64,000 nucleotides of DNA from a virus (taxonomy: Duplodnaviria; Heunggongvirae; Uroviricota; Caudoviricetes): the IMG/VR virus record IMGVR_UViG_3300022555_000011, positions 19,381 through 83,380 of that record, one strand, 5' to 3'. The translations under genes were made by a program, and so were the position numbers. Under the pieces are notes generated by a model that was not told the origin of the DNA, did not search any database, and worked only from the letters and a program-made list of their open reading frames with translations. Shown here piece by piece: positions 14,538 to 42,053 of this stretch; the first letter of the stretch is position 1; every line of letters begins with the position of its first letter.

Positions 14538-14589
14538 ATTACTTATATATTAATTTAAACAATCAAAAAATTATTTGATATATATAATA

Positions 14590-15708
14590 ATGGATAAGAA
14601 GAGTATAATAGATTTATCAAATAAGATTCATAATTTTTATTATGATTATGCCAAAGTTGAGGATTCTGGTAAAATGAATAAAATAAAAATTATATGTCCT
14701 ATTCATGGTGAATTTGAACAGAGATTGGATGTTCACCTTAAAGGATCTGGATGCATAAAATGTGGAATAAATAGTAGAAAAAATAATATATTTGAGTTAA
14801 TAAGTAAATTTAATGTAGTACACAACAATAAATATGATTATTCTTTGACTTACTATGTTAATAATAAAAGTAAAATAAAAATTATATGTCCTATTCATGG
14901 TGAATTTGAGCAATCTACATCAAAACATTTATTCGGCTCTGGTTGCAAAAAATGCTCAGTGGATAATTCTAAAAAAAATAGAACTAAATCGAAAGATCAA
15001 TTTATAAAAGAATCAAACAAAAGGCATAATAATAAATATGATTATAGTCTGGTTAATTATGAAAACAATTATAAAAAAATTAAAATTATTTGTCCTGATC
15101 ATGGTGTTTTTGAACAAATTCCAAATAATCATTTATCTGGATCAGGTTGTTTTAAATGTTTTCATATTTATATTAATAATTTTAATACTTTAGATATATT
15201 AGAAATTTTTGATAATTTTAATAATGTACATGGTGATAAATATGATTATTCTTTGGTAGATTATGTGAATGGTGATATAAAAATTAAAATTATCTGCGAG
15301 GTTCATGGTATATTCGAGCAGACCCCAAATAGTCATAAAAATGGTTCTGGCTGTCCTCATTGTGCTAATATAAAAAATAGGTTAAAATATATTGATATTT
15401 TGAAAAGTAGATTTGAATCCAATATACAAATAACTCCAAATTTTAATAAATCTGCTTGTGCCATATTTGATAATATTATGAAAGATAATAATTCATATAT
15501 TCAACACGCTATGAATGATGGTGAATTTTTTATTAAGGAATTAGGATATTGGTTGGATGGTTATGATAAAGTTAATAATATTGTATATGAATTTGACGAA
15601 AAATATCACTTTAAAAAAGGAGTATTATCACCAAAAGATATAATACGACAGATGGAAATAGAAAATTTATTAAAATGCAATTTTATCAGAATAAAAAATA
15701 ATAATTAA
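14590..15708 (+). CDS. zinc-ribbon-repeat (DUF723-like) homing endonuclease
   Basis: Four KYDYS...IICPxHGxFEQ...HxxGSGCxxC repeats; C-terminal LDGYD...EFDEKYH; ATG at 14590 follows TATATA. Confidence 0.75.
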   Translation: MDKKSIIDLSNKIHNFYYDYAKVEDSGKMNKIKIICPIHGEFEQRLDVHLKGSGCIKCGINSRKNNIFELISKFNVVHNNKYDYSLTYYVNNKSKIKIICPIHGEFEQSTSKHLFGSGCKKCSVDNSKKNRTKSKDQFIKESNKRHNNKYDYSLVNYENNYKKIKIICPDHGVFEQIPNNHLSGSGCFKCFHIYINNFNTLDILEIFDNFNNVHGDKYDYSLVDYVNGDIKIKIICEVHGIFEQTPNSHKNGSGCPHCANIKNRLKYIDILKSRFESNIQITPNFNKSACAIFDNIMKDNNSYIQHAMNDGEFFIKELGYWLDGYDKVNNIVYEFDEKYHFKKGVLSPKDIIRQMEIENLLKCNFIRIKNNN

Positions 15709-15711
15709 AAA

Positions 15712-16350
15712 ATGAAAAATCCGTTTGATTATTTTGAGGAAATTTGGGTTATTAATCTGGATTCCAGAACAGATCGTTGGCAACACGCACAAGAGGAATT
15801 TAAGAAAGCTGGAATTTTAGATAAAGTTCAAAGATTTTCTGCAATTAGGGAAGACGATGGTAGAGTTGGTGTTATAAAATCAAACCTGGCTATTGTAAAA
15901 ATGGCAAAACAAAAAAAATTAAAAAATGTCTTAGTTTTTGAAGATGATTTTGAATTTATTGTTGATGATCCTCAAAAGGTACTACAGACATCTATTGATC
16001 AAGCAAAAGGAATAAATTGGCACCTATTTTATTTAGGCGCAAATACACATGAAAAACTAATTAAATTTAAGCCAAATTTAATAGCATTAAGAAACGCATT
16101 TGCAGTTCATTCTATGGCATATAGTAGCCTTGTATATGATTCTTTTATAAATAAGTATGAAGGAATTAAATCTATAAGAACTTTTGATGATATACTTGAT
16201 GTTTATTTAGCCAAAAATATTCAAACAAAAGGTGTTTGTCTTATGGTTAATCCTATGATGACTACACAAATGAATTCTTTTTCTGATATTGAAAAAAGAA
16301 TAGTAGATTACTCTTTCATTGAAGAAAGATATAAAAACAATATAAAATAA
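15712..16350 (+). CDS. glycosyltransferase family 25
   Basis: VINLDSRTDRW and LVFEDD motifs. Confidence 0.82.
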   Translation: MKNPFDYFEEIWVINLDSRTDRWQHAQEEFKKAGILDKVQRFSAIREDDGRVGVIKSNLAIVKMAKQKKLKNVLVFEDDFEFIVDDPQKVLQTSIDQAKGINWHLFYLGANTHEKLIKFKPNLIALRNAFAVHSMAYSSLVYDSFINKYEGIKSIRTFDDILDVYLAKNIQTKGVCLMVNPMMTTQMNSFSDIEKRIVDYSFIEERYKNNIK

Positions 16351-17084
16351 TGACTGACAAAACACTAAAAACACCATTTGTAATTTCTGATCAAACATTA
16401 GATAGAAGAGAAGATATATATGCTTTTTCTGAGTTTGGTAAAATTGTAAATAGATACGTATTAAATGATCAAATATTCTCCGTCGATTTTTGGAAATATT
16501 TGAAAGACAATTATGTTATAAAGCCTGAAAACACTATAGTATATTGTGATCTTCGCTCAGATGTTAAAAATAGAATGGAAAAAAGCTACAAATATATTGT
16601 TAAAGTTGATAAGCCATTTAAAATGATATTTCAATTTTATGATGAAGAAAAAGTTGTAGATGATAAAATATACGAAACTGAAATTGAACAAAAAAATAAA
16701 ATTTCAGAGTTAATGATTCATTTTGACTTTGATGCAATTGATCATGTTGAAAAATTTGTTGAAGATGTTAAGAAAATTATGTATCAACCTGCAGTTAATA
16801 AAACATTTTTCATTATTTCTTCATCTTCAATGGGTTATGAATTAAGAGCAGCAAATATTAAAGAATTTGACGTACAATTAGATTTGAATTATGGTGAGTC
16901 ATTTGTTGAAAAATATGCTGAGATAGTTAATAAATTGAGAAATTTCAAACATGGATTATTTTTATTTCATGGAGAAACTGGTTGTGGGAAATGTGTGGAC
17001 GAATCTACTATTGTTACGTTACGAAATAAAACTACTGGCGAAATAGAAAATATAAATATTTCAGATTTTGAAAAAATAATATGA
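16350..17084 (+). CDS. AAA+ ATPase N-terminal fragment fused to short split-intein N part
   Basis: Walker A stops at GETGCGK, followed by CVDESTIVTL... (intein block A) and a stop. Confidence 0.88.
   Translation: MTDKTLKTPFVISDQTLDRREDIYAFSEFGKIVNRYVLNDQIFSVDFWKYLKDNYVIKPENTIVYCDLRSDVKNRMEKSYKYIVKVDKPFKMIFQFYDEEKVVDDKIYETEIEQKNKISELMIHFDFDAIDHVEKFVEDVKKIMYQPAVNKTFFIISSSSMGYELRAANIKEFDVQLDLNYGESFVEKYAEIVNKLRNFKHGLFLFHGETGCGKCVDESTIVTLRNKTTGEIENINISDFEKII
16992..17081 (+). mobile_element. atypical split intein IntN (30 aa)
   Basis: CVDESTIVTLRNKTTGEIENINISDFEKII. Confidence 0.85.
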
Positions 17085-17099
17085 TGTTTTGCCTGTTCC

Positions 17100-17147
17100 A
17101 CTCATAATATTTTTATATATAGAACAAAAGAATAATTAATTATGAGT
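17100..17147 (+). promoter_or_regulatory. start-codon-sequestering hairpin with TATATATAG in the loop
   Basis: actcataat (17100-17108) pairs with attATGagt (17139-17147). Confidence 0.55.
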
Positions 17148-18122
17148 TTTTATGATATTGAACATTGGATAAAAAAAGGTTTGAGTGAAAATGATGCTAA
17201 GGAAAAAATAAAAGAAATAAAAGAGAAAAATAATAGATTTCGTGTTGAATTTTGGTTAAGGAAAGGATTTACTGAGATTGAATCTAAAGAAAAAATAAGT
17301 GAGATACAAAAAAATAATGCGTCAAAGGTTAATCATAAAACAAAGCCTCAAACAACTAGAATAGATTATTGGATAAGTAAAGGTTATTCTCTTGAAGAAT
17401 CTAAAATAAAATTAAAAGAGAGACAAACTACATTTACATTAGATAAATGTATATTTAAATATGGAGAAATAGAAGGACAAAAAATATTTAGAAATAGGCA
17501 AGAAAAATGGCAAGAGACTTTAAATAAAAATAATGATAAAATTGAACTTAATAAAAAACGTGGTCTATCCAAAGAAAAGTTTATTGAAAAGCATGGTCTA
17601 GAGATGTTTAATAAGAGTGTTGAATTAAAAAAATTTGGAAGTAGTAAAGAAGGTTTGATAGAAAATTATGGTTTAGATTTTTATAATAAGAGAATAAATA
17701 AAACAAAAATTGTATTAAAAAACAGAGGATTTAATAAATATTCAAAAATATCATTAGAATTGTTTTTAGAAATAGAAAAAAATATAGATTTAGATTGTTT
17801 TTACGGTAAAAATGAAAAAATAATACAATTTTATGCTGATGAAAAATATTTTTGCTTCTATGCTGACTTTATGTGTGAAAATAAAATTATAGAATTTTAT
17901 GGTGATTATTTTCATGGTAATCCAGAGGTGTATAATAAAGATAAAATAATTGGTAGTAAATATAAACATTTTTCTGCTGAAGATGCTTGGAAAAAAGATT
18001 CTGATAGAATAAACTTAATTAAAAATCAAGGATATGATATATTAATAATATGGGAAAATGATTATAAAAAAGATAAAGAAAAAATAAAAAATAAATGTGT
18101 AGAATGGATAAAAAATTTATAA
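17142..18122 (+). CDS. free-standing Vsr/PD-(D/E)XK-like endonuclease inside the fractured AAA gene
   Basis: W-x-x-KG-x-x-E-x-E-x-KEK repeats; ADFMCENKIIEFYGDYFH...IWENDY C-terminus. Confidence 0.75.
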   Translation: MSFYDIEHWIKKGLSENDAKEKIKEIKEKNNRFRVEFWLRKGFTEIESKEKISEIQKNNASKVNHKTKPQTTRIDYWISKGYSLEESKIKLKERQTTFTLDKCIFKYGEIEGQKIFRNRQEKWQETLNKNNDKIELNKKRGLSKEKFIEKHGLEMFNKSVELKKFGSSKEGLIENYGLDFYNKRINKTKIVLKNRGFNKYSKISLELFLEIEKNIDLDCFYGKNEKIIQFYADEKYFCFYADFMCENKIIEFYGDYFHGNPEVYNKDKIIGSKYKHFSAEDAWKKDSDRINLIKNQGYDILIIWENDYKKDKEKIKNKCVEWIKNL

Positions 18123-18955
18123 GTTCGAAAAATATTTCAAATTATGAAATATTAACAGAAGATGGATTTAAAGATGTTATAGCATTACATAAAACTATAC
18201 CTTATGATATGTATAATTTAGTTCTTGAAAGTAAAGAGTTAAAATGTGCAGATTTTCATATTGTTTTTTTAGAAACTGGTGAAGAAATTTTTGTTAAAGA
18301 TTTGATTAAAGGTAATAAAATAAAAACTGTTGATGGTGTAGAGGAAGTTTTGGATGTTATAAATTGTGGTTATGAAAAAGAAATGTATGATTTTGAACTT
18401 GGTGGTGATAATTTTAAATATTACACCAATGGAATTTTAAGCCATAATACCACATTAATTAGAAAATTGGTTTCTGAATTAGCTGAAGATAAAACTATTA
18501 TTTATGTTCCATCATATTTTATGGCTGATATTGCTAATCCAGAATTAATTTCATTTATTTCTAAATTTAGAAATTCTGTTCTCTTATTAGAAGATGCTGA
18601 GAGTATTTTAACTGCACCACAAGATGAAAGAACACAAGCTGTCACAAATATATTAAATATTAGTGACGGATTATTGAATGATCATATGGATATGCAAATA
18701 ATTGCAACATTTAATACTGGCAAAAAGAATGTAATTGATGATGCTTTATTACGAAAAGGTAGATTGATGGTTGATTATAAATTTAAGAAACTTACTGCAA
18801 AACAAGCAACTAAACTATCTAAACATATTGGTCAGAATAAAGAATATACTGAGCCTAAATCTCTAGCTGAAATTTATGAGGAAAAAAATAGTGGTAAACA
18901 ATTGGTAGATAATGATGTAAATACACAAAAAATAGGATTTCAATTTACAAAATAA
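18104..18955 (+). CDS. split-intein C part (115 aa) fused to AAA+ ATPase C-terminal fragment
   Basis: Block B KCADFH, block F MYDFEL, block G ILSHN|T; then TTLIRKL, Walker B LLLED, LLRKGRL; ATG 18104 (or 18095). Confidence 0.88.
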   Translation: MDKKFISSKNISNYEILTEDGFKDVIALHKTIPYDMYNLVLESKELKCADFHIVFLETGEEIFVKDLIKGNKIKTVDGVEEVLDVINCGYEKEMYDFELGGDNFKYYTNGILSHNTTLIRKLVSELAEDKTIIYVPSYFMADIANPELISFISKFRNSVLLLEDAESILTAPQDERTQAVTNILNISDGLLNDHMDMQIIATFNTGKKNVIDDALLRKGRLMVDYKFKKLTAKQATKLSKHIGQNKEYTEPKSLAEIYEEKNSGKQLVDNDVNTQKIGFQFTK

Positions 18956-18960
18956 TCTAA

Positions 18961-19005
18961 TTTCTAAAAAAAAGAACTGAAAATTTCAGTTCTTTTTTTT
19001 AGAAA
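18961..19005. terminator. 22-bp near-perfect palindrome, bidirectional terminator
   Basis: tttct(a8)gaactgaaa-a-tttcagttc(t8)agaaa. Confidence 0.8.
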
Positions 19006-19060
19006 AGGTTTTTTTAATTTTGTAGGACTTTTAACTACAAAAGAATTAGACGCATGACTA

Positions 19061-19068
19061 CAAAGATA
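19061..19068 (-). promoter_or_regulatory. Bacteroidota-type -7 box TATCTTTG with no downstream protein gene
   Basis: caaagata on the + strand, facing the 18961-19005 terminator. Confidence 0.35.
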
Positions 19069-19117
19069 TATTAGTTTAATCACACGAAAATAGATATAAT
19101 AATATTATATATCTATT

Positions 19118-19360
19118 ATGAAAGAATTTTTATTTATGTTTCTTATTTTTGTTGCTAACATTAATTGCTTCTCTCAAAGTACAGCATATGCTAATATTTT
19201 TGTGACAATTGTAGAAGCACCAATACAAATTAAAATAACTTCTGATAGTACTGTAGTTAGAAAAGATATTTATATGGCAAGTATGACATCAAAAATGGAT
19301 ACCACATATGTAAATAGAAGGAAAATTGTATTAAATGCTAAATTGATTAATTATAATTAA
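19118..19360 (+). CDS. small secreted/membrane protein
   Basis: Signal-peptide-like N-terminus MKEFLFMFLIFVANINCFSQ. Confidence 0.6.
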   Translation: MKEFLFMFLIFVANINCFSQSTAYANIFVTIVEAPIQIKITSDSTVVRKDIYMASMTSKMDTTYVNRRKIVLNAKLINYN

Positions 19361-19363
19361 TAA

Positions 19364-20341
19364 TTATTTCTTGTTTAATTCCACAATATTTTTAAATTCT
19401 TGTAAAATTCGTGTCTTATTTTCAGATGGTGAATGGTTTATATAATCAATTACCATTTCATTTAATGATAGTGAAGATTCATTTAAGTCTAGAATGTCTT
19501 CTTTATCTTTTAATATTTCATTATCAATATAACTCACATTAGCAATATCATGTTCAGATATTAGCATTTCTATTTTTAATTTGTTGTCAACTAATAGTTT
19601 TTTATTTATATTCAAACTAATGTAATTATTGATAAATGTTTCAACAGGAATATTTAGGTCTGACTCTGTTTCAATGTTTATCTTTTTGAAGTTCGGACTT
19701 AGTTTATTTTGAACAAATTTATCTTTATTCTCATAAACATCTAGAATAATAAATCCTTTTTTATCATCACCTTCAGTGTTGTATGGACCAGCTAAATTTT
19801 TGATATTTGCAGTTACACCGTTTTTATCATAGAATCCATTATAACATTTTTTGTACATTTTTAGCTTGTTTACTATAATGTCTCTTTTTGGTGAGTTTAC
19901 ATAATCAAAGTTAAAGAAACAATAGTCAGATTCAAATTTATCAAGATCCTCAATTTGTGTATTTCTTGGAAGTGCAACAAAACTTTCATCCAATAAAATT
20001 TCTATTCTTTTAGGTTCTTTTATAATTTCAATATTGTCTATATTTTTAAGGATATTTAATGATAGAGTGTCATTTTCTCCTTCTATAATATATACTGGAA
20101 GTATTTTTGATATCTTTTCAAATAAGTCTTGAATGAATTTTAAGACTGTTAAATCAATTGTTTTTGTTTTGCATAGTAGATTACCTAAATGAATTAATAT
20201 ATCATTTGGTTGAGCGTTATTAGTCAAATAAGGCACAAATTCGTTGTAGAAATAGTAGTCCATGTTTTTCAACCATTCTTTTGAAGAAAGATTTTTTGAT
20301 AGGTTTAAGTTTGTATTGCTTATGATGAATATTTTTGACAT
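19364..20341 (-). CDS. degenerate SbcD/Mre11/gp47-like protein
   Basis: Overall gp47-like layout, but IISNTN, HLGNL and EGEND replace DxH, GD and GNHD. Confidence 0.7.
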   Translation of the reverse strand: MSKIFIISNTNLNLSKNLSSKEWLKNMDYYFYNEFVPYLTNNAQPNDILIHLGNLLCKTKTIDLTVLKFIQDLFEKISKILPVYIIEGENDTLSLNILKNIDNIEIIKEPKRIEILLDESFVALPRNTQIEDLDKFESDYCFFNFDYVNSPKRDIIVNKLKMYKKCYNGFYDKNGVTANIKNLAGPYNTEGDDKKGFIILDVYENKDKFVQNKLSPNFKKINIETESDLNIPVETFINNYISLNINKKLLVDNKLKIEMLISEHDIANVSYIDNEILKDKEDILDLNESSLSLNEMVIDYINHSPSENKTRILQEFKNIVELNKK

Positions 20342-36099: not shown

Positions 36100-37329
36100 A
36101 TGGAATTAATAGAAAAAATTAAAAATAGTAAAAGTATGTCTGGCATCATTAGAATGATTAATGGTGATGATAAATTAAATGATATTGTTATAGATAGAAC
36201 AAAGTATTTAAATGATGCTTCTATACATGAAAGGTTATTTAATATAAAAAATGATTTTTTTGATAATACTGTTTGTTCCATATGTAATGTAAGTTTTTTA
36301 GAATGGAATGTTAAATATAATAAATATAAAAATACTTGTTCTCATAAAGAATGTAAAACAAAATTTTTGATGATAAATAAAGATCCAGAGTCAGAAAAAT
36401 TAAGAAGAGAAAAAATAAGCGAAACACAAAAAAATAAAACTGAAGAAGAAAAACAAATAATTTTAGACAAGATTAAAAAAACAAATATTAAAAAATTTGG
36501 TAAAGATTCTTATGCAAAAACACAAAAATTTAAAAATGATATGATTGATAAATATGGATATATTAGTGCATTTGAATTGAAAGAAACCCATGATAAGTCA
36601 AAATTAACTTTACTTAAAAAATATAATTGTGATCACAATTCTAAGATAGATGAAGTGAAAAATAATAAAAAAATTACATATTTAAATAATTATGGTGTTG
36701 ATAACCCCACAAAATCTATAGTTGTAAAAGATAAAATTATAAAAACAAATAATGAAAAGTATGGTGGCAACTCACCTATGAATAATGATGAAGTGAAAGA
36801 AAAAGCAAGAGAAACATATCAATCAAATTATATTGATAATGAATTAAAAATGAATGAGTTGGTTTCCAGAAGAGAAGATACGATGTTTAAAAAGTATGGT
36901 GTTAATTATTGGATACAAGATAGTAAAAACTTAGATAAATTAGTTAAAAAAACAACTTATAAAAAATATCTTATACATGATAAAGAATATTTTTTGCAAG
37001 GATATGAAGATTGTGTTCTATTTGATATTTTATTAAAAAAGTATGATATTAATGATATTTGTATTTTTAATGATGATATAGAAAAATACACAGGTAAAAT
37101 ATATTATAGAGTTGAAAATAAAAAACACAAATATTATCCAGATTTTTATATAATAAGTGAGAATAAAATATATGAAGTTAAATCTGAATATACGTATAAT
37201 TCAGATATTATTATAAATACTCTAAAAAAAGATGCTTGCATTAATAACGGAATAGATTTTGAGTTTATTATATTGTCTAAAAAAGAATATAATAAATGGA
37301 AAAATAATAAAAATAATAAAAATATATGA
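36100..37329 (+). CDS. free-standing PD-(D/E)XK-type endonuclease inside fractured recA
   Basis: KYGVDNP-type repeats; C-terminal YYPDFYI...IYEVKS. Confidence 0.75.
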   Translation: MELIEKIKNSKSMSGIIRMINGDDKLNDIVIDRTKYLNDASIHERLFNIKNDFFDNTVCSICNVSFLEWNVKYNKYKNTCSHKECKTKFLMINKDPESEKLRREKISETQKNKTEEEKQIILDKIKKTNIKKFGKDSYAKTQKFKNDMIDKYGYISAFELKETHDKSKLTLLKKYNCDHNSKIDEVKNNKKITYLNNYGVDNPTKSIVVKDKIIKTNNEKYGGNSPMNNDEVKEKARETYQSNYIDNELKMNELVSRREDTMFKKYGVNYWIQDSKNLDKLVKKTTYKKYLIHDKEYFLQGYEDCVLFDILLKKYDINDICIFNDDIEKYTGKIYYRVENKKHKYYPDFYIISENKIYEVKSEYTYNSDIIINTLKKDACINNGIDFEFIILSKKEYNKWKNNKNNKNI

Positions 37330-41008: not shown

Positions 41009-41078
41009 TTTTATTTTCATTTTTCCAGTTTTTTTATTTTATATATACAAATAAAACATCCAGATGAAAATAAAATTA
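41006..41078 (+). promoter_or_regulatory. 15-bp hairpin sequestering the endonuclease ATG, TATATATAC between the arms
   Basis: taattttattttcat (41006-41020) pairs with ATGaaaataaaatta (41064-41078). Confidence 0.7.
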
Positions 41079-42053
41079 TTAAAAATTGAGGAGGACAGAA
41101 GAAGAATATTGTATAAAATAGATCAAGAAGAGTACATCATTAATGGTAAGATATTTAAAGTAAAAAAAAGCACTGCTAATCTTAGTAGTTATTTAAATTC
41201 TATTGATAGTTCATTAATTAAAATTTTAAATTTATCAGTAGATTGTAAATGTAAAAATTGTTTAGAGTATATTACTAGAAATAGATTTGAAAGAAATGTT
41301 TTTATTGCATATAAATTTTGCAATGAGTGTGATAAAAGAAATGTTTTGAATAAATATAATATTGTTAAGTGTATATGTTGTAATAAAGAAATTTTATATA
41401 AAGATATTAAATATTCTACTTGTGGAAATAAAAAATGTTTAGAAGAATATAGAAATATTATAAATAATAAAATAAAAGAAACACATTGGACTTTAAATGA
41501 TCACAAAAATGATATAACGATTAAAAAATCTATAAAAAGAAAAGAAAATGATATTAAATTTTGTAGAAAATATGTGGCTTGGAATAAAGATAAAACTGGA
41601 ATATATTCTAAAGAGACAATTGAAAAATTAAGAAATGCTGCCATTAATCAAATGAAAAATGGTAAAATTAAAAAAACAGGAATTGAGACAATTTTTGAAG
41701 AATTATTAAAATCTAATAATATTGATTATACATACTCGTTTATATATGAAAATAGGCAATTTGATTTTATTATAAAAGATTATAATATTGTTGTTGAAAT
41801 TCAGGGGGATTACTGGCATTCTAATCCTAAATTTTGGGATGTTTATGATAATGATAAAACAAAAAAGAAATTGTATGAGACTCAGATAATGAAAATAAAA
41901 GATGATGTAATTAAAAAGAATATTATAGAAAGATCAAAATATGATTTTGTTTCATTTTGGGAATATGATATTCATAATAATATTTCAGAAGTTGAAAAAA
42001 CTTTATTTGAATTAATTAATAAAAATAAAATTAAAAATGGAAAAAACTTATAG
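41064..42053 (+). CDS. free-standing Vsr/DUF559-like endonuclease inside fractured nrdJ
   Basis: Zn-ribbon N-terminus; IETIFEELL...FDFII...EIQGDYWH...FWEYDI. Confidence 0.78.
   Translation: MKIKLLKIEEDRRRILYKIDQEEYIINGKIFKVKKSTANLSSYLNSIDSSLIKILNLSVDCKCKNCLEYITRNRFERNVFIAYKFCNECDKRNVLNKYNIVKCICCNKEILYKDIKYSTCGNKKCLEEYRNIINNKIKETHWTLNDHKNDITIKKSIKRKENDIKFCRKYVAWNKDKTGIYSKETIEKLRNAAINQMKNGKIKKTGIETIFEELLKSNNIDYTYSFIYENRQFDFIIKDYNIVVEIQGDYWHSNPKFWDVYDNDKTKKKLYETQIMKIKDDVIKKNIIERSKYDFVSFWEYDIHNNISEVEKTLFELINKNKIKNGKNL

What the first reader, a model, noticed from the sequence alone, without database searches (positions are those of the whole stretch)
16350..18955. Fractured AAA+ ATPase with an atypically split intein (30-aa IntN, 115-aa IntC) around an endonuclease
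The N-gene ends GETGCGK|CVDESTIVTL...(30 aa)*. After a 981-bp endonuclease gene, the C-gene starts with the remaining intein (block B CADFH, block G SHN) and continues |TTLIRKL. Splicing would rebuild the P-loop GETGCGKTT, so ATPase activity needs protein trans-splicing. The split lies just after block A, as in rare atypical split inteins such as AceL-TerL that are prized for labelling. I do not know of one in this AAA family, but novelty needs a database check.
Basis: partly seen in the sequence, partly recalled or inferred. Interest (0 to 1): 0.85.

Follow-up and report, generated by a model that had tools for sequence, protein, structure and literature searches.

The report
Phage ATPase gene split by intein
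In a freshwater phage, the only copy of a Bcs1-like AAA ATPase gene is cut in two inside its ATP-binding loop by a self-splicing intein that a selfish nuclease gene has split into a 30-residue and a 115-residue piece; it is real and probably functional, but it is a new example of an arrangement known since 2009.

Summary
The N-gene (16350-17084) ends with the Walker A sequence GETGCGK followed by a 30-aa IntN. A 326-aa endonuclease gene follows (17142-18122). The C-gene (18095/18104-18955) starts with a 115-118-aa IntC ending SHN, then TTLIRKL.

- Intein-less alleles (97% identical C-extein, GxxGxGKTTLIRKL) and an empty-site contig from an independent lake metagenome fix the junction exactly.
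- A homologous ATPase carries the same intein unsplit.
- One allele keeps the split but has lost the endonuclease gene.
- Both intein halves are under purifying selection, and IntC keeps every residue that is invariant across the family.
- The complex model passes its controls.
- The endonuclease belongs to the EDxHD/Vsr-like homing family.

IntC is a sequence relative of the Cat, VidaL and gp41-1 inteins. Its family is large: 851 representative clusters, mostly atypically split, mostly in terminases, and 8 of 81 sampled in AAA exteins.

So this is a "fractured gene" (Dassa 2009) with an atypically split intein, a new member of a known kind. This scan has already noted such cases in at least 55 other genomes. 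Trans-splicing itself is inferred, not shown.

The parts
16350..16991 (+). N-extein: residues 1-214 of a Bcs1/YjoB-like AAA ATPase, ending at the Walker A lysine (GETGCGK)
   Evidence: 87% identical to residues 1-223 of the intein-less P0002. The fold of P0002 is closest to Bcs1/YjoB.
16992..17084 (+). IntN: 30 aa (CVDEST...EKII) plus the stop codon; block A with Cys1
   Evidence: CVxGxT..x.RNKxTG is conserved in 6 alleles, whose IntN lengths are 27-32 aa. The model places it against IntC blocks B, F and G.
17085..17141 (+). Spacer carrying the promoter-like motif TTTATATATAG (17112-17122) about 20 nt before the endonuclease start
   Evidence: 12 copies in the window against 0.58 expected, each shortly before an ORF start. 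Three of those ORFs are the endonuclease genes that lie between split-intein halves. The motif is conserved in L001, L003 and L009.
17142..18122 (+). Free-standing homing endonuclease gene (326 aa): helical N-terminal repeats (WxxKG[FY]sExEa) and a C-terminal EDxHD/Vsr-like nuclease core
   Evidence: Pfam MTES_1575 at E 4e-4 and DUF559; phrog_22677. AF2 model with pLDDT 90.7. The best PDB fold matches are the I-Bth0305I catalytic domain 3R3P (TMt 0.64-0.66), then Vsr 1CW0/1VSR. E251, G254, H258, P261 and D286 are invariant in 64 homologues.
18104..18448 (+). IntC: 115 aa from the conserved MDKKF start (an alternative ATG at 18095 gives 118 aa). It carries block B CADFH (His52), block F Asp96 and block G Ser-His-Asn115. 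Its start overlaps the 3' end of the endonuclease gene.
   Evidence: (CatC 6DSL at E 3e-6, VidaL 6VGV, gp41-1 6QAZ), and 52 (T31, H52, M94, D96, S113, H114 and N115 invariant in 81 family representatives and all present here).
18449..18955 (+). C-extein: 168 aa starting at Thr+1 (TTLIRKL...), with Walker B (LLLEDAE) and the rest of the AAA domain, plus the stop codon
   Evidence: 97% identical to P0002 residues 215-382. Pfam AAA.
18961..19005 (+). Terminator-like hairpin followed by a T run, directly after the C-gene; none was found between the three genes
   Evidence: 3 terminator-like sites in 16000-19400 against 0.2 expected.

Best explanation
This is a 'fractured gene'. The single copy of a Bcs1/YjoB-like classical AAA ATPase gene in a 147-kb freshwater phage carries a class-1 intein (Cys1 ... 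His-Asn | Thr+1) inserted between the Lys and Thr of Walker A. The intein belongs to the P-loop-targeting family that also includes the TerL-derived consensus Cat intein. A free-standing EDxHD (Vsr-like) homing endonuclease gene, with its own promoter-like motif, sits in the intein loop about 30 residues from its N-terminus. I read this as the S2 site of AceL/GOS-TerL and Cat. As a result the intein is made as a 30-aa IntN on the N-half and a 115-aa IntC on the C-half. The inferred mechanism is that the two polypeptides associate through the intein halves, protein trans-splicing removes them, and the 382-aa ATPase forms with an intact GETGCGKTT P-loop. The endonuclease most likely cuts intein-less alleles in co-infecting relatives and so copies the intein-plus-endonuclease cassette into them. 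Shown here: the anatomy, the homology, the exact insertion boundaries, purifying selection and the scattered distribution. Inferred: splicing activity, endonuclease activity and its target.
For: 1. Boundaries. Intein-less homologues read G..G.GKTTLIRKL. P0002 is 382 aa and 97% identical in the C-extein. In a lake metagenome from a different study than the probable source, one contig joins 16991 to 18461 with 12 nt encoding TTLI between. That is an empty site at exactly the predicted junction.
2. One domain in two pieces. P0126 (549 aa) is a homologous ATPase with the same intein unsplit at the same site: GK|CVVGDT...linker...YYTNGILSHN|TTLIRKL.
3. Family. The best PDB sequence matches of IntC are CatC 6DSL (E 2.9e-6), VidaL 6VGV (5.7e-6) and gp41-1 6QAZ. 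There are 851 representative clusters at E<=1e-3. Of the best 145, 116 carry IntC at the protein N-terminus.
4. Catalytic residues. Cys1 is conserved in all six alleles aligned. Block B His52, block F Asp96, and Ser-His-Asn115 are invariant in 81 family representatives and present here. Thr+1 is also present, where the family has Ser or Thr.
5. Selection. Across 6 alleles with dS of about 0.5-2, dN/dS is 0.03-0.92 for IntN (median about 0.25) and 0.17-0.64 for IntC. That is the same range as the exteins, 0.10-0.67.
6. L005 keeps both split halves with only a 97-bp spacer. The spacer retains the two ends of the endonuclease cassette, so the split outlived loss of the endonuclease gene.
7. Complex model of IntC with IntN: score 0.81 against a best control of 0.00. 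This mark was reached by 51 of 78 solved complexes and 2 of 108 mismatched pairs. The runs agree in at least 84% of contacts and the partner pLDDT is at least 76. Contacts put residues 216-217 against block B (46-49) and Tyr95 next to the block F Asp96. Similar complexes have been solved (6DSL), so the pass may reflect likeness only.
8. The genome holds no second copy of the ATPase.
9. Mobility. On the C-extein tree, the split state needs 23 changes (at least 18 forced by well-supported branches) for 29 split rows. Several split/empty pairs are near-identical sisters.
10. The endonuclease belongs to the EDxHD/Vsr-like family (PMC3239194, PMC2677866).
Against: No protein or RNA data exist for this locus, so splicing is inferred. 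Block B reads CADxH rather than the common TxxH; this is conserved in the six ATPase alleles, and A, D and H are nearly invariant or invariant family-wide, which argues against decay. dS is near saturation, so the dN/dS values are rough, and the 30-codon IntN gives noisy estimates (one pair at 0.92). The complex model may pass because similar complexes are solved. The start codon of the C-gene is ambiguous (18095 or 18104). The function of the ATPase in the phage is unknown, so its necessity is not established.
Confidence: 0.85

Rival explanations
1. Decaying remnant. The endonuclease insertion killed the intein or the ATPase, and the two ORFs are pseudogene halves on their way to loss.
For: Most alleles of this ATPase (90 of 119) lack the element, so the phages do well without it. 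The ATPase has no known function.
Against: Both exteins and both intein halves show dN/dS well below 1 at near-saturated dS. The IntC residues invariant across the family are all kept, and Cys1 is conserved in all six alleles. The reading frames are intact in at least 29 clusters that diverge to 58% extein identity. The split persists after loss of the endonuclease gene (L005). This is the only ATPase copy in the genome.
Confidence: 0.06
2. Non-covalent reassembly. The intein halves only dock the two ATPase fragments together without splicing, as described for the mobE-fragmented NrdA of an Aeromonas phage (title and abstract of PMC3045599).
For: The model predicts tight association of IntN and IntC. 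A precedent exists for fragmented phage enzymes assembled without ligation.
Against: The break lies inside the P-loop (GK|T). A 145-residue HINT domain left there would sit in the nucleotide-binding site. All splicing nucleophiles and the Asn-cyclisation residues are conserved, which docking alone would not require.
Confidence: 0.05
3. Removal at the RNA level (a group I or II intron carrying the endonuclease ORF), or an assembly artefact, so that a contiguous intein or ATPase is made.
For: EDxHD endonucleases also occur in group I introns, for example I-Bth0305I in recA (PMC3239194).
Against: Rfam finds no intron-family match at E<=1 in 15500-19500. The spacer before the endonuclease gene does not fold better than shuffled sequence (z 0.32). 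The same three-gene layout occurs in independent assemblies from several studies. In L005 the two halves are separated by only 97 bp, too short for an intron.
Confidence: 0.02

Closest known systems
'Fractured genes' of Dassa, London, Stoddard, Schueler-Furman and Pietrokovski 2009 (PMC2677866)
   Same: A host enzyme gene is broken by a split intein, with a free-standing Vsr-like (or GIY-YIG) endonuclease gene between the halves. The endonuclease arrives with its own control element and its frame overlaps the downstream half. The arrangement is found mainly in phages, and loci without the endonuclease are also seen.
   Different: The hosts listed there are gp41 helicase, IMPDH, DnaE, NrdA, NrdJ, DNA ligase and terminase. 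A Bcs1-like AAA ATPase is not among them. No significant hairpin was found upstream of the endonuclease gene here.
AceL-TerL and GOS-TerL naturally atypically split inteins, and their consensus Cat (PDB 6DSL; IntN 25-37 aa, Cat 30 aa; S2 split site after helix alpha1, per PMC13014065)
   Same: Short IntN (30 aa) and long IntC (115 aa). Cysteine-dependent, inserted at a P-loop GK|[ST], with block G reading YYTNGI[LV]SH. CatC is the best PDB sequence match of IntC (E 2.9e-6).
   Different: The extein is an AAA ATPase, not a terminase. The sequence is diverged, so it is a family relative rather than an allele. The +1 residue is Thr. No kinetic data exist. Assignment to the S2 site rests on IntN length and the alignment to Cat, not on a solved structure.
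VidaL (PDB 6VGV/6VGW) and PolB16 OarG atypically split inteins (PMC13014065, PMC10189870)
   Same: Naturally split with a very short IntN. VidaL is the second-best PDB sequence match (E 5.7e-6).
   Different: Those two are split at the S1 site after strand beta2 (IntN 15-16 aa). PolB16 is cysteine-less.
I-Bth0305I, prototype of the EDxHD homing endonuclease family (PDB 3R3P; PMC3239194)
   Same: N-terminal helical DNA-binding repeats plus a C-terminal Vsr-like nuclease core. It is the best PDB fold match of the endonuclease model. The E..GD..H.NP...D residues are conserved.
   Different: I-Bth0305I is encoded in a group I intron of recA. Here the gene is free-standing inside an intein coding sequence. 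Sequence identity is only 16-18% in the aligned core, and the Foldseek E-value is weak (0.05) because the full-length model was used as the query.
Bcs1 (mitochondrial AAA translocase) and Bacillus subtilis YjoB
   Same: They are the best fold matches of the intein-less homologue over both the N-terminal domain and the AAA domain (E 1.6e-13 to 1e-10). Pfam AAA PF00004 matches at E 1.4e-9.
   Different: Sequence identity is 12-16% and global TM only 0.35-0.46. The role in the phage is unknown.

Membership tests
Intein (HINT domain, class 1) | In-frame insertion that is absent from otherwise collinear homologues, with the extein sequence continuous across the site | tested here: met
   P0002 and about 90 other homologues read G..G.GKTTLIRKL. 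An empty-site contig occurs in run X3.
Intein (HINT domain, class 1) | Nucleophile at position 1 (Cys or Ser), block B His, block F Asp, penultimate His plus terminal Asn, and a +1 Cys/Ser/Thr | tested here: met
   Cys215 of the N-gene; His52, Asp96, His114, Asn115 and Thr116 of the C-gene. The IntC residues are invariant in 81 family representatives. Cys1 is conserved in all 6 alleles aligned. The +1 residue is Ser or Thr across the family.
Intein (HINT domain, class 1) | Catalyses protein splicing | not testable with these tools
   Indirect support only: purifying selection and the complex model.
Atypically split intein (short IntN) | IntN and IntC lie on separate ORFs, with IntN of about 15-37 aa and a correspondingly long IntC (PMC13014065) | tested here: met
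   IntN is 30 aa with a stop at 17082-17084. IntC is 115-118 aa at the start of the next ATPase ORF. IntN is 27-32 aa in 5 other alleles.
Atypically split intein (short IntN) | Homology to characterised members | tested here: met
   CatC 6DSL at E 2.9e-6 and VidaL 6VGV at E 5.7e-6. The 30-aa IntN alone gave no PDB hit; it is too short for this search.
Atypically split intein (short IntN) | The two fragments associate into one HINT fold | tested here: inconclusive
   The model supports binding: 0.81 against a best control of 0.00, a mark reached by 51 of 78 solved complexes and 2 of 108 mismatched pairs. The runs agree in at least 84% of contacts and the partner pLDDT is at least 76. Similar complexes are solved, so the pass may come from memory.
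Fractured gene (Dassa 2009) | Host gene halves, each fused to a split-intein half, with a free-standing homing endonuclease gene between them in the same orientation | tested here: met
   The same layout occurs in L001, L002, L003 and L009.
EDxHD / Vsr-like homing endonuclease | C-terminal Vsr-like nuclease fold with conserved E, D, H and D residues; N-terminal helical DNA-binding modules | tested here: met
   Fold matches: 3R3P with TMt 0.64-0.66 and probability 1.0, and Vsr 1CW0/1VSR. E251, H258 and D286 are invariant, and D255 is the majority residue. Pfam MTES_1575 at E 4e-4 is below its cutoff. The nuclease core shares 35% identity over 65 aa (E 3e-6) with the endonuclease of the NrdJ locus.
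EDxHD / Vsr-like homing endonuclease | Cleaves the intein-less allele near the insertion site | not testable with these tools
   Indirect only. The distribution on the extein tree is scattered (23 changes). Identity is lower next to the site (47/60 nt) than further away (54-59/60) when compared with the empty allele L008.
Classical AAA ATPase (PF00004), Bcs1/YjoB-like | Walker A GxxGxGK[ST], Walker B, the AAA fold, and a Bcs1-type N-terminal domain | tested here: met
   This holds for the spliced product, judged from its intein-less homologue: Pfam AAA at E 1.4e-9 and Bcs1/YjoB fold matches at E 1.6e-13. In the window Walker A exists only after joining the two halves.

The most novel reading that the evidence does not exclude
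One insertion site in one phage gene family shows all four states that the fractured-gene model predicts. These are: the empty site; a contiguous mini-intein (P0126); an intein split by an EDxHD endonuclease gene (this window); and the split kept after deletion of the endonuclease gene (L005). There have also been many recent gains and losses. If these states are truly stages of one lineage, the locus is a natural record of how atypically split inteins arise. It would also be a source of many diverged, naturally co-evolved pairs of a 27-32-aa IntN and an IntC, in a new extein context (Thr+1, AAA P-loop), that could be tested for orthogonality to Cat and AceL-TerL. A further possibility is that the endonuclease's own promoter-like motif also drives the overlapping C-half, so that splicing times ATPase activation.
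Probability: 0.4. Interest if true: 0.45.

Novelty: new member of a known kind. Interest (0 to 1): 0.3.

Why it matters
Only a handful of natural atypically split inteins have been characterised: AceL-TerL, GOS-TerL, VidaL and PolB16. Protein chemists value them because the short IntN can be synthesised chemically. This locus adds a candidate with a 30-aa IntN, in an extein type I did not find in the papers I read. It comes with dozens of natural variants (IntN 27-32 aa) and a contiguous relative for comparison. For phage biology, it shows the sole copy of a conserved ATPase depending on protein trans-splicing, and an intein-endonuclease cassette that has moved among related freshwater phages many times. 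It does not change what is known about how such elements work.

Tried and rejected
- Group I/II intron: an Rfam E-value scan of 15500-19500 found only four weak sRNA/miRNA-model matches, all at the terminator hairpin. Rejected.
- Regulatory hairpin before the endonuclease gene, as in Dassa 2009: folding of 17070-17170 is no better than shuffled sequence (z 0.32).
- DNA similarity to deposited phages: only a 47-nt match to one uncultured phage. No cultured relative was found.
- IntN (30 aa) against PDB sequences: no hit at E<=10. The query is too short to be informative.
- Pfam and PHROG on the N-gene alone: nothing significant. The AAA identity only appears from the C-half and from intein-less homologues.
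- The endonuclease of the UvsX locus (36100-37329) is unrelated to this one (E 0.29).
- RNA evidence: no RNA holder is listed among public runs, so expression and splicing at the RNA level could not be examined.
- The sigma-70 promoter scan gave no enrichment (28 sites against 31 expected).
- The PNAS 2020 VidaL paper could not be read.
Full report
**Context.** The window is part of a single 147,380-bp contig with about 25% G+C. It encodes a phage baseplate spike/lysin and a ribonucleotide reductase with an HNH intein, and several homing-type nucleases. It is therefore a large phage genome. Near-identical DNA occurs in freshwater and lake-water metagenomes from at least two further studies.

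**Observation.** Three co-oriented ORFs are exactly as described.
- The N-gene (16350-17084, 244 aa) ends FHGETGCGK, then CVDESTIVTLRNKTTGEIENINISDFEKII and a stop.
- A 326-aa ORF follows (17142-18122).
- The C-gene (18095-18955) overlaps the end of that ORF in another frame.
- Its widely conserved start MDKKF (18104) opens a 115-aa stretch with LKCADFH, DFEL and YYTNGILSHN, followed by TTLIRKL and the rest of an AAA domain (Pfam AAA).
- A terminator-like hairpin follows only after the C-gene.

**Is it an intein, and are the boundaries right?** A search with the C-extein found 261 homologues. About three quarters of the 119 usable ones are roughly 380-aa proteins with an uninterrupted G..G.GKTTLIRKL. 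The rest are roughly 283-aa proteins that begin with the same IntC ending SHN|T.
- The nearest empty allele (P0002, 382 aa) is 97% identical in the C-extein and 87% in the N-extein. It equals the length of the predicted spliced product (214 + 168 aa).
- At the DNA level, the empty allele L008 aligns up to the AAA Lys codon and resumes at the ACC Thr codon.
- In a lake metagenome from a different study than the probable source, one contig joins 16991 directly to 18461 with 12 nt encoding TTLI in between.
- The inserted element is therefore 16992-18448.

**One domain in two pieces.** P0126 (549 aa, contig L007) is a homologous ATPase. It carries the same intein unsplit at the same site, and its IntC-equivalent part is 59% identical. 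It has a short acidic linker exactly where the window has the stop, the endonuclease gene and the restart.
- IntC matches the solved CatC (6DSL, E 2.9e-6), VidaL (6VGV) and gp41-1 (6QAZ) inteins by sequence.
- An exhaustive search found 851 representative clusters at E<=1e-3.
- Of the best 145 with a recognisable block G, 116 have IntC at the very N-terminus of the protein, meaning they are atypically split. Another 29 have it internally, about 18 of them as contiguous mini-inteins of 151-179 aa at GK|C.
- The exteins of 81 split representatives are mostly T4-type large terminases (40). DnaB-like helicases (9), AAA PF00004 (8), ABC ATPases (4), ClpB-type (3) and gp44 clamp loaders (2) follow.
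- The family thus targets P-loops at GK|[ST], and an AAA extein is recurrent in sequence data.

**Is it likely to work?**
- Six alleles with DNA in hand (window, L001, L002, L003, L005, L009) differ at near-saturated synonymous distances. Even so, dN/dS is about 0.03-0.9 for IntN and 0.17-0.64 for IntC, similar to the exteins at 0.10-0.67.
- Cys1 and the CVxGxT..RNKxTG pattern are conserved in all six alleles. His52, Asp96 and Ser-His-Asn115 are invariant across 81 family representatives, and all are present here.
- The genome has no other copy of the ATPase.
- L005 has both halves separated by 97 bp with no endonuclease gene. The spacer still resembles the first bases after the N-gene stop and the last roughly 55 nt of the endonuclease ORF. 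I read this as an endonuclease deletion in a lineage that kept the split.
- A complex model of IntC with IntN scored 0.81 against a best control of 0.00. That mark was reached by 51 of 78 solved complexes and 2 of 108 mismatched pairs. Runs agree in at least 84% of contacts, and the partner pLDDT is at least 76. The residues next to Cys1 pack against block B and against Tyr95, next to the block F Asp96. Because similar complexes are solved, this shows likeness rather than proof.

**The middle gene.**
- Its AF2 model is confident (pLDDT 90.7): a helical N-terminal half with repeated WxxKG[FY]sExEa modules, and a C-terminal alpha/beta core.
- The best PDB fold matches are the catalytic domain of homing endonuclease I-Bth0305I (3R3P, TMt 0.64-0.66) and then E. 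coli Vsr.
- E251, G254, H258, P261 and D286 are invariant in 64 homologues.
- This is the EDxHD/Vsr-like family, first predicted from fractured genes (PMC2677866) and characterised as I-Bth0305I (PMC3239194).
- The gene is preceded by TTTATATATAG. That motif occurs 12 times in the window against 0.58 expected, always shortly before an ORF start. Three of those ORFs are the endonuclease genes that lie between split-intein halves in this window.

**Mobility.** On a maximum-likelihood tree of 119 C-exteins, the split state needs 23 changes (at least 18 forced by well-supported branches) for 29 split rows. That is hardly fewer than for shuffled labels (mean about 26), and 36-39 of 500 shuffles gave as few. 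Several split/empty pairs are near-identical sisters. This fits repeated homing and loss. Extein recombination could contribute, and I did not separate gains from losses.

**The host protein.** The intein-less homologue is a classical AAA ATPase (Pfam AAA E 1.4e-9). Its model, including the N-terminal domain, is closest to Bcs1 and B. subtilis YjoB (E 1.6e-13 to 1e-10). Its role in the phage is unknown.

**Comparison and novelty.**
- The layout is that of Dassa et al. 2009 (PMC2677866).
- I read the split as the S2 type of AceL/GOS-TerL and Cat, whose IntN is 25-37 aa with Cat at 30 aa (PMC13014065). This is inferred from length and alignment.
- The characterised atypically split inteins named in the papers I read sit in terminase and PolB genes, or have no extein stated there. 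I found none in an AAA ATPase, but I could not search intein databases.
- This scan has already recorded similar cases in at least 55 other genomes, and this window holds two more fractured genes.
- I therefore rate it a well-supported new member of a known kind.

**Not shown.** Splicing, endonuclease activity and its target, transcription starts, and the ATPase's function were not shown.

Noticed in passing
window 1157, 7090, 10456, 12461(-), 17112, 20963, 22365, 36075, 41038, 45127, 50436, 62367: The motif TTTATATATA[CG] occurs 12 times against 0.58 expected by shuffling. Each copy lies roughly 10-45 nt upstream of an ORF start. Those ORFs include the three endonuclease genes between split-intein halves, a TnpB-like gene and two other nuclease cassettes. 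It is probably a phage promoter class shared by the mobile nuclease genes.
   Followed up: partly
The RNR C-part also holds a contiguous intein with an HNH domain (Pfam). The endonuclease at 41064-42053 shares the EDxHD core with the one studied here (E 3e-6). The one at 36100-37329 does not.
   Followed up: partly
window 18449-18508 compared with L008: Against the nearest empty allele, the first 60 nt of the C-extein are only 47/60 identical, while windows further downstream are 54-59/60. The Walker A codons also differ (GETGCGK versus GDSGTGK). This may be a co-conversion tract or target-site divergence next to the homing site. It rests on a single comparison.
   Followed up: no
L005:3867-3963 (JGI 3300038912): This allele has both split-intein halves but no endonuclease gene. 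The 97-bp spacer resembles the two ends of the endonuclease cassette.
   Followed up: partly
window 14575-15708: A 377-aa protein lies two genes upstream. It has four repeats of a Cys-rich module (KIICPxHGxFEQ...GSGC) and matches endonuclease PHROGs 681 and 559. DUF723 is recorded for its homologues. It is syntenic with the ATPase locus in related contigs.
   Followed up: no
P0218, P0129, P0176 (representative proteins): The same intein family occurs unsplit at GK|[ST] of a DnaB-like helicase and a large terminase. It also occurs in a ClpB-like ATPase. Two terminase examples (P0157, P0213) carry a roughly 300-aa low-complexity insert at the position of the split.
   Followed up: no
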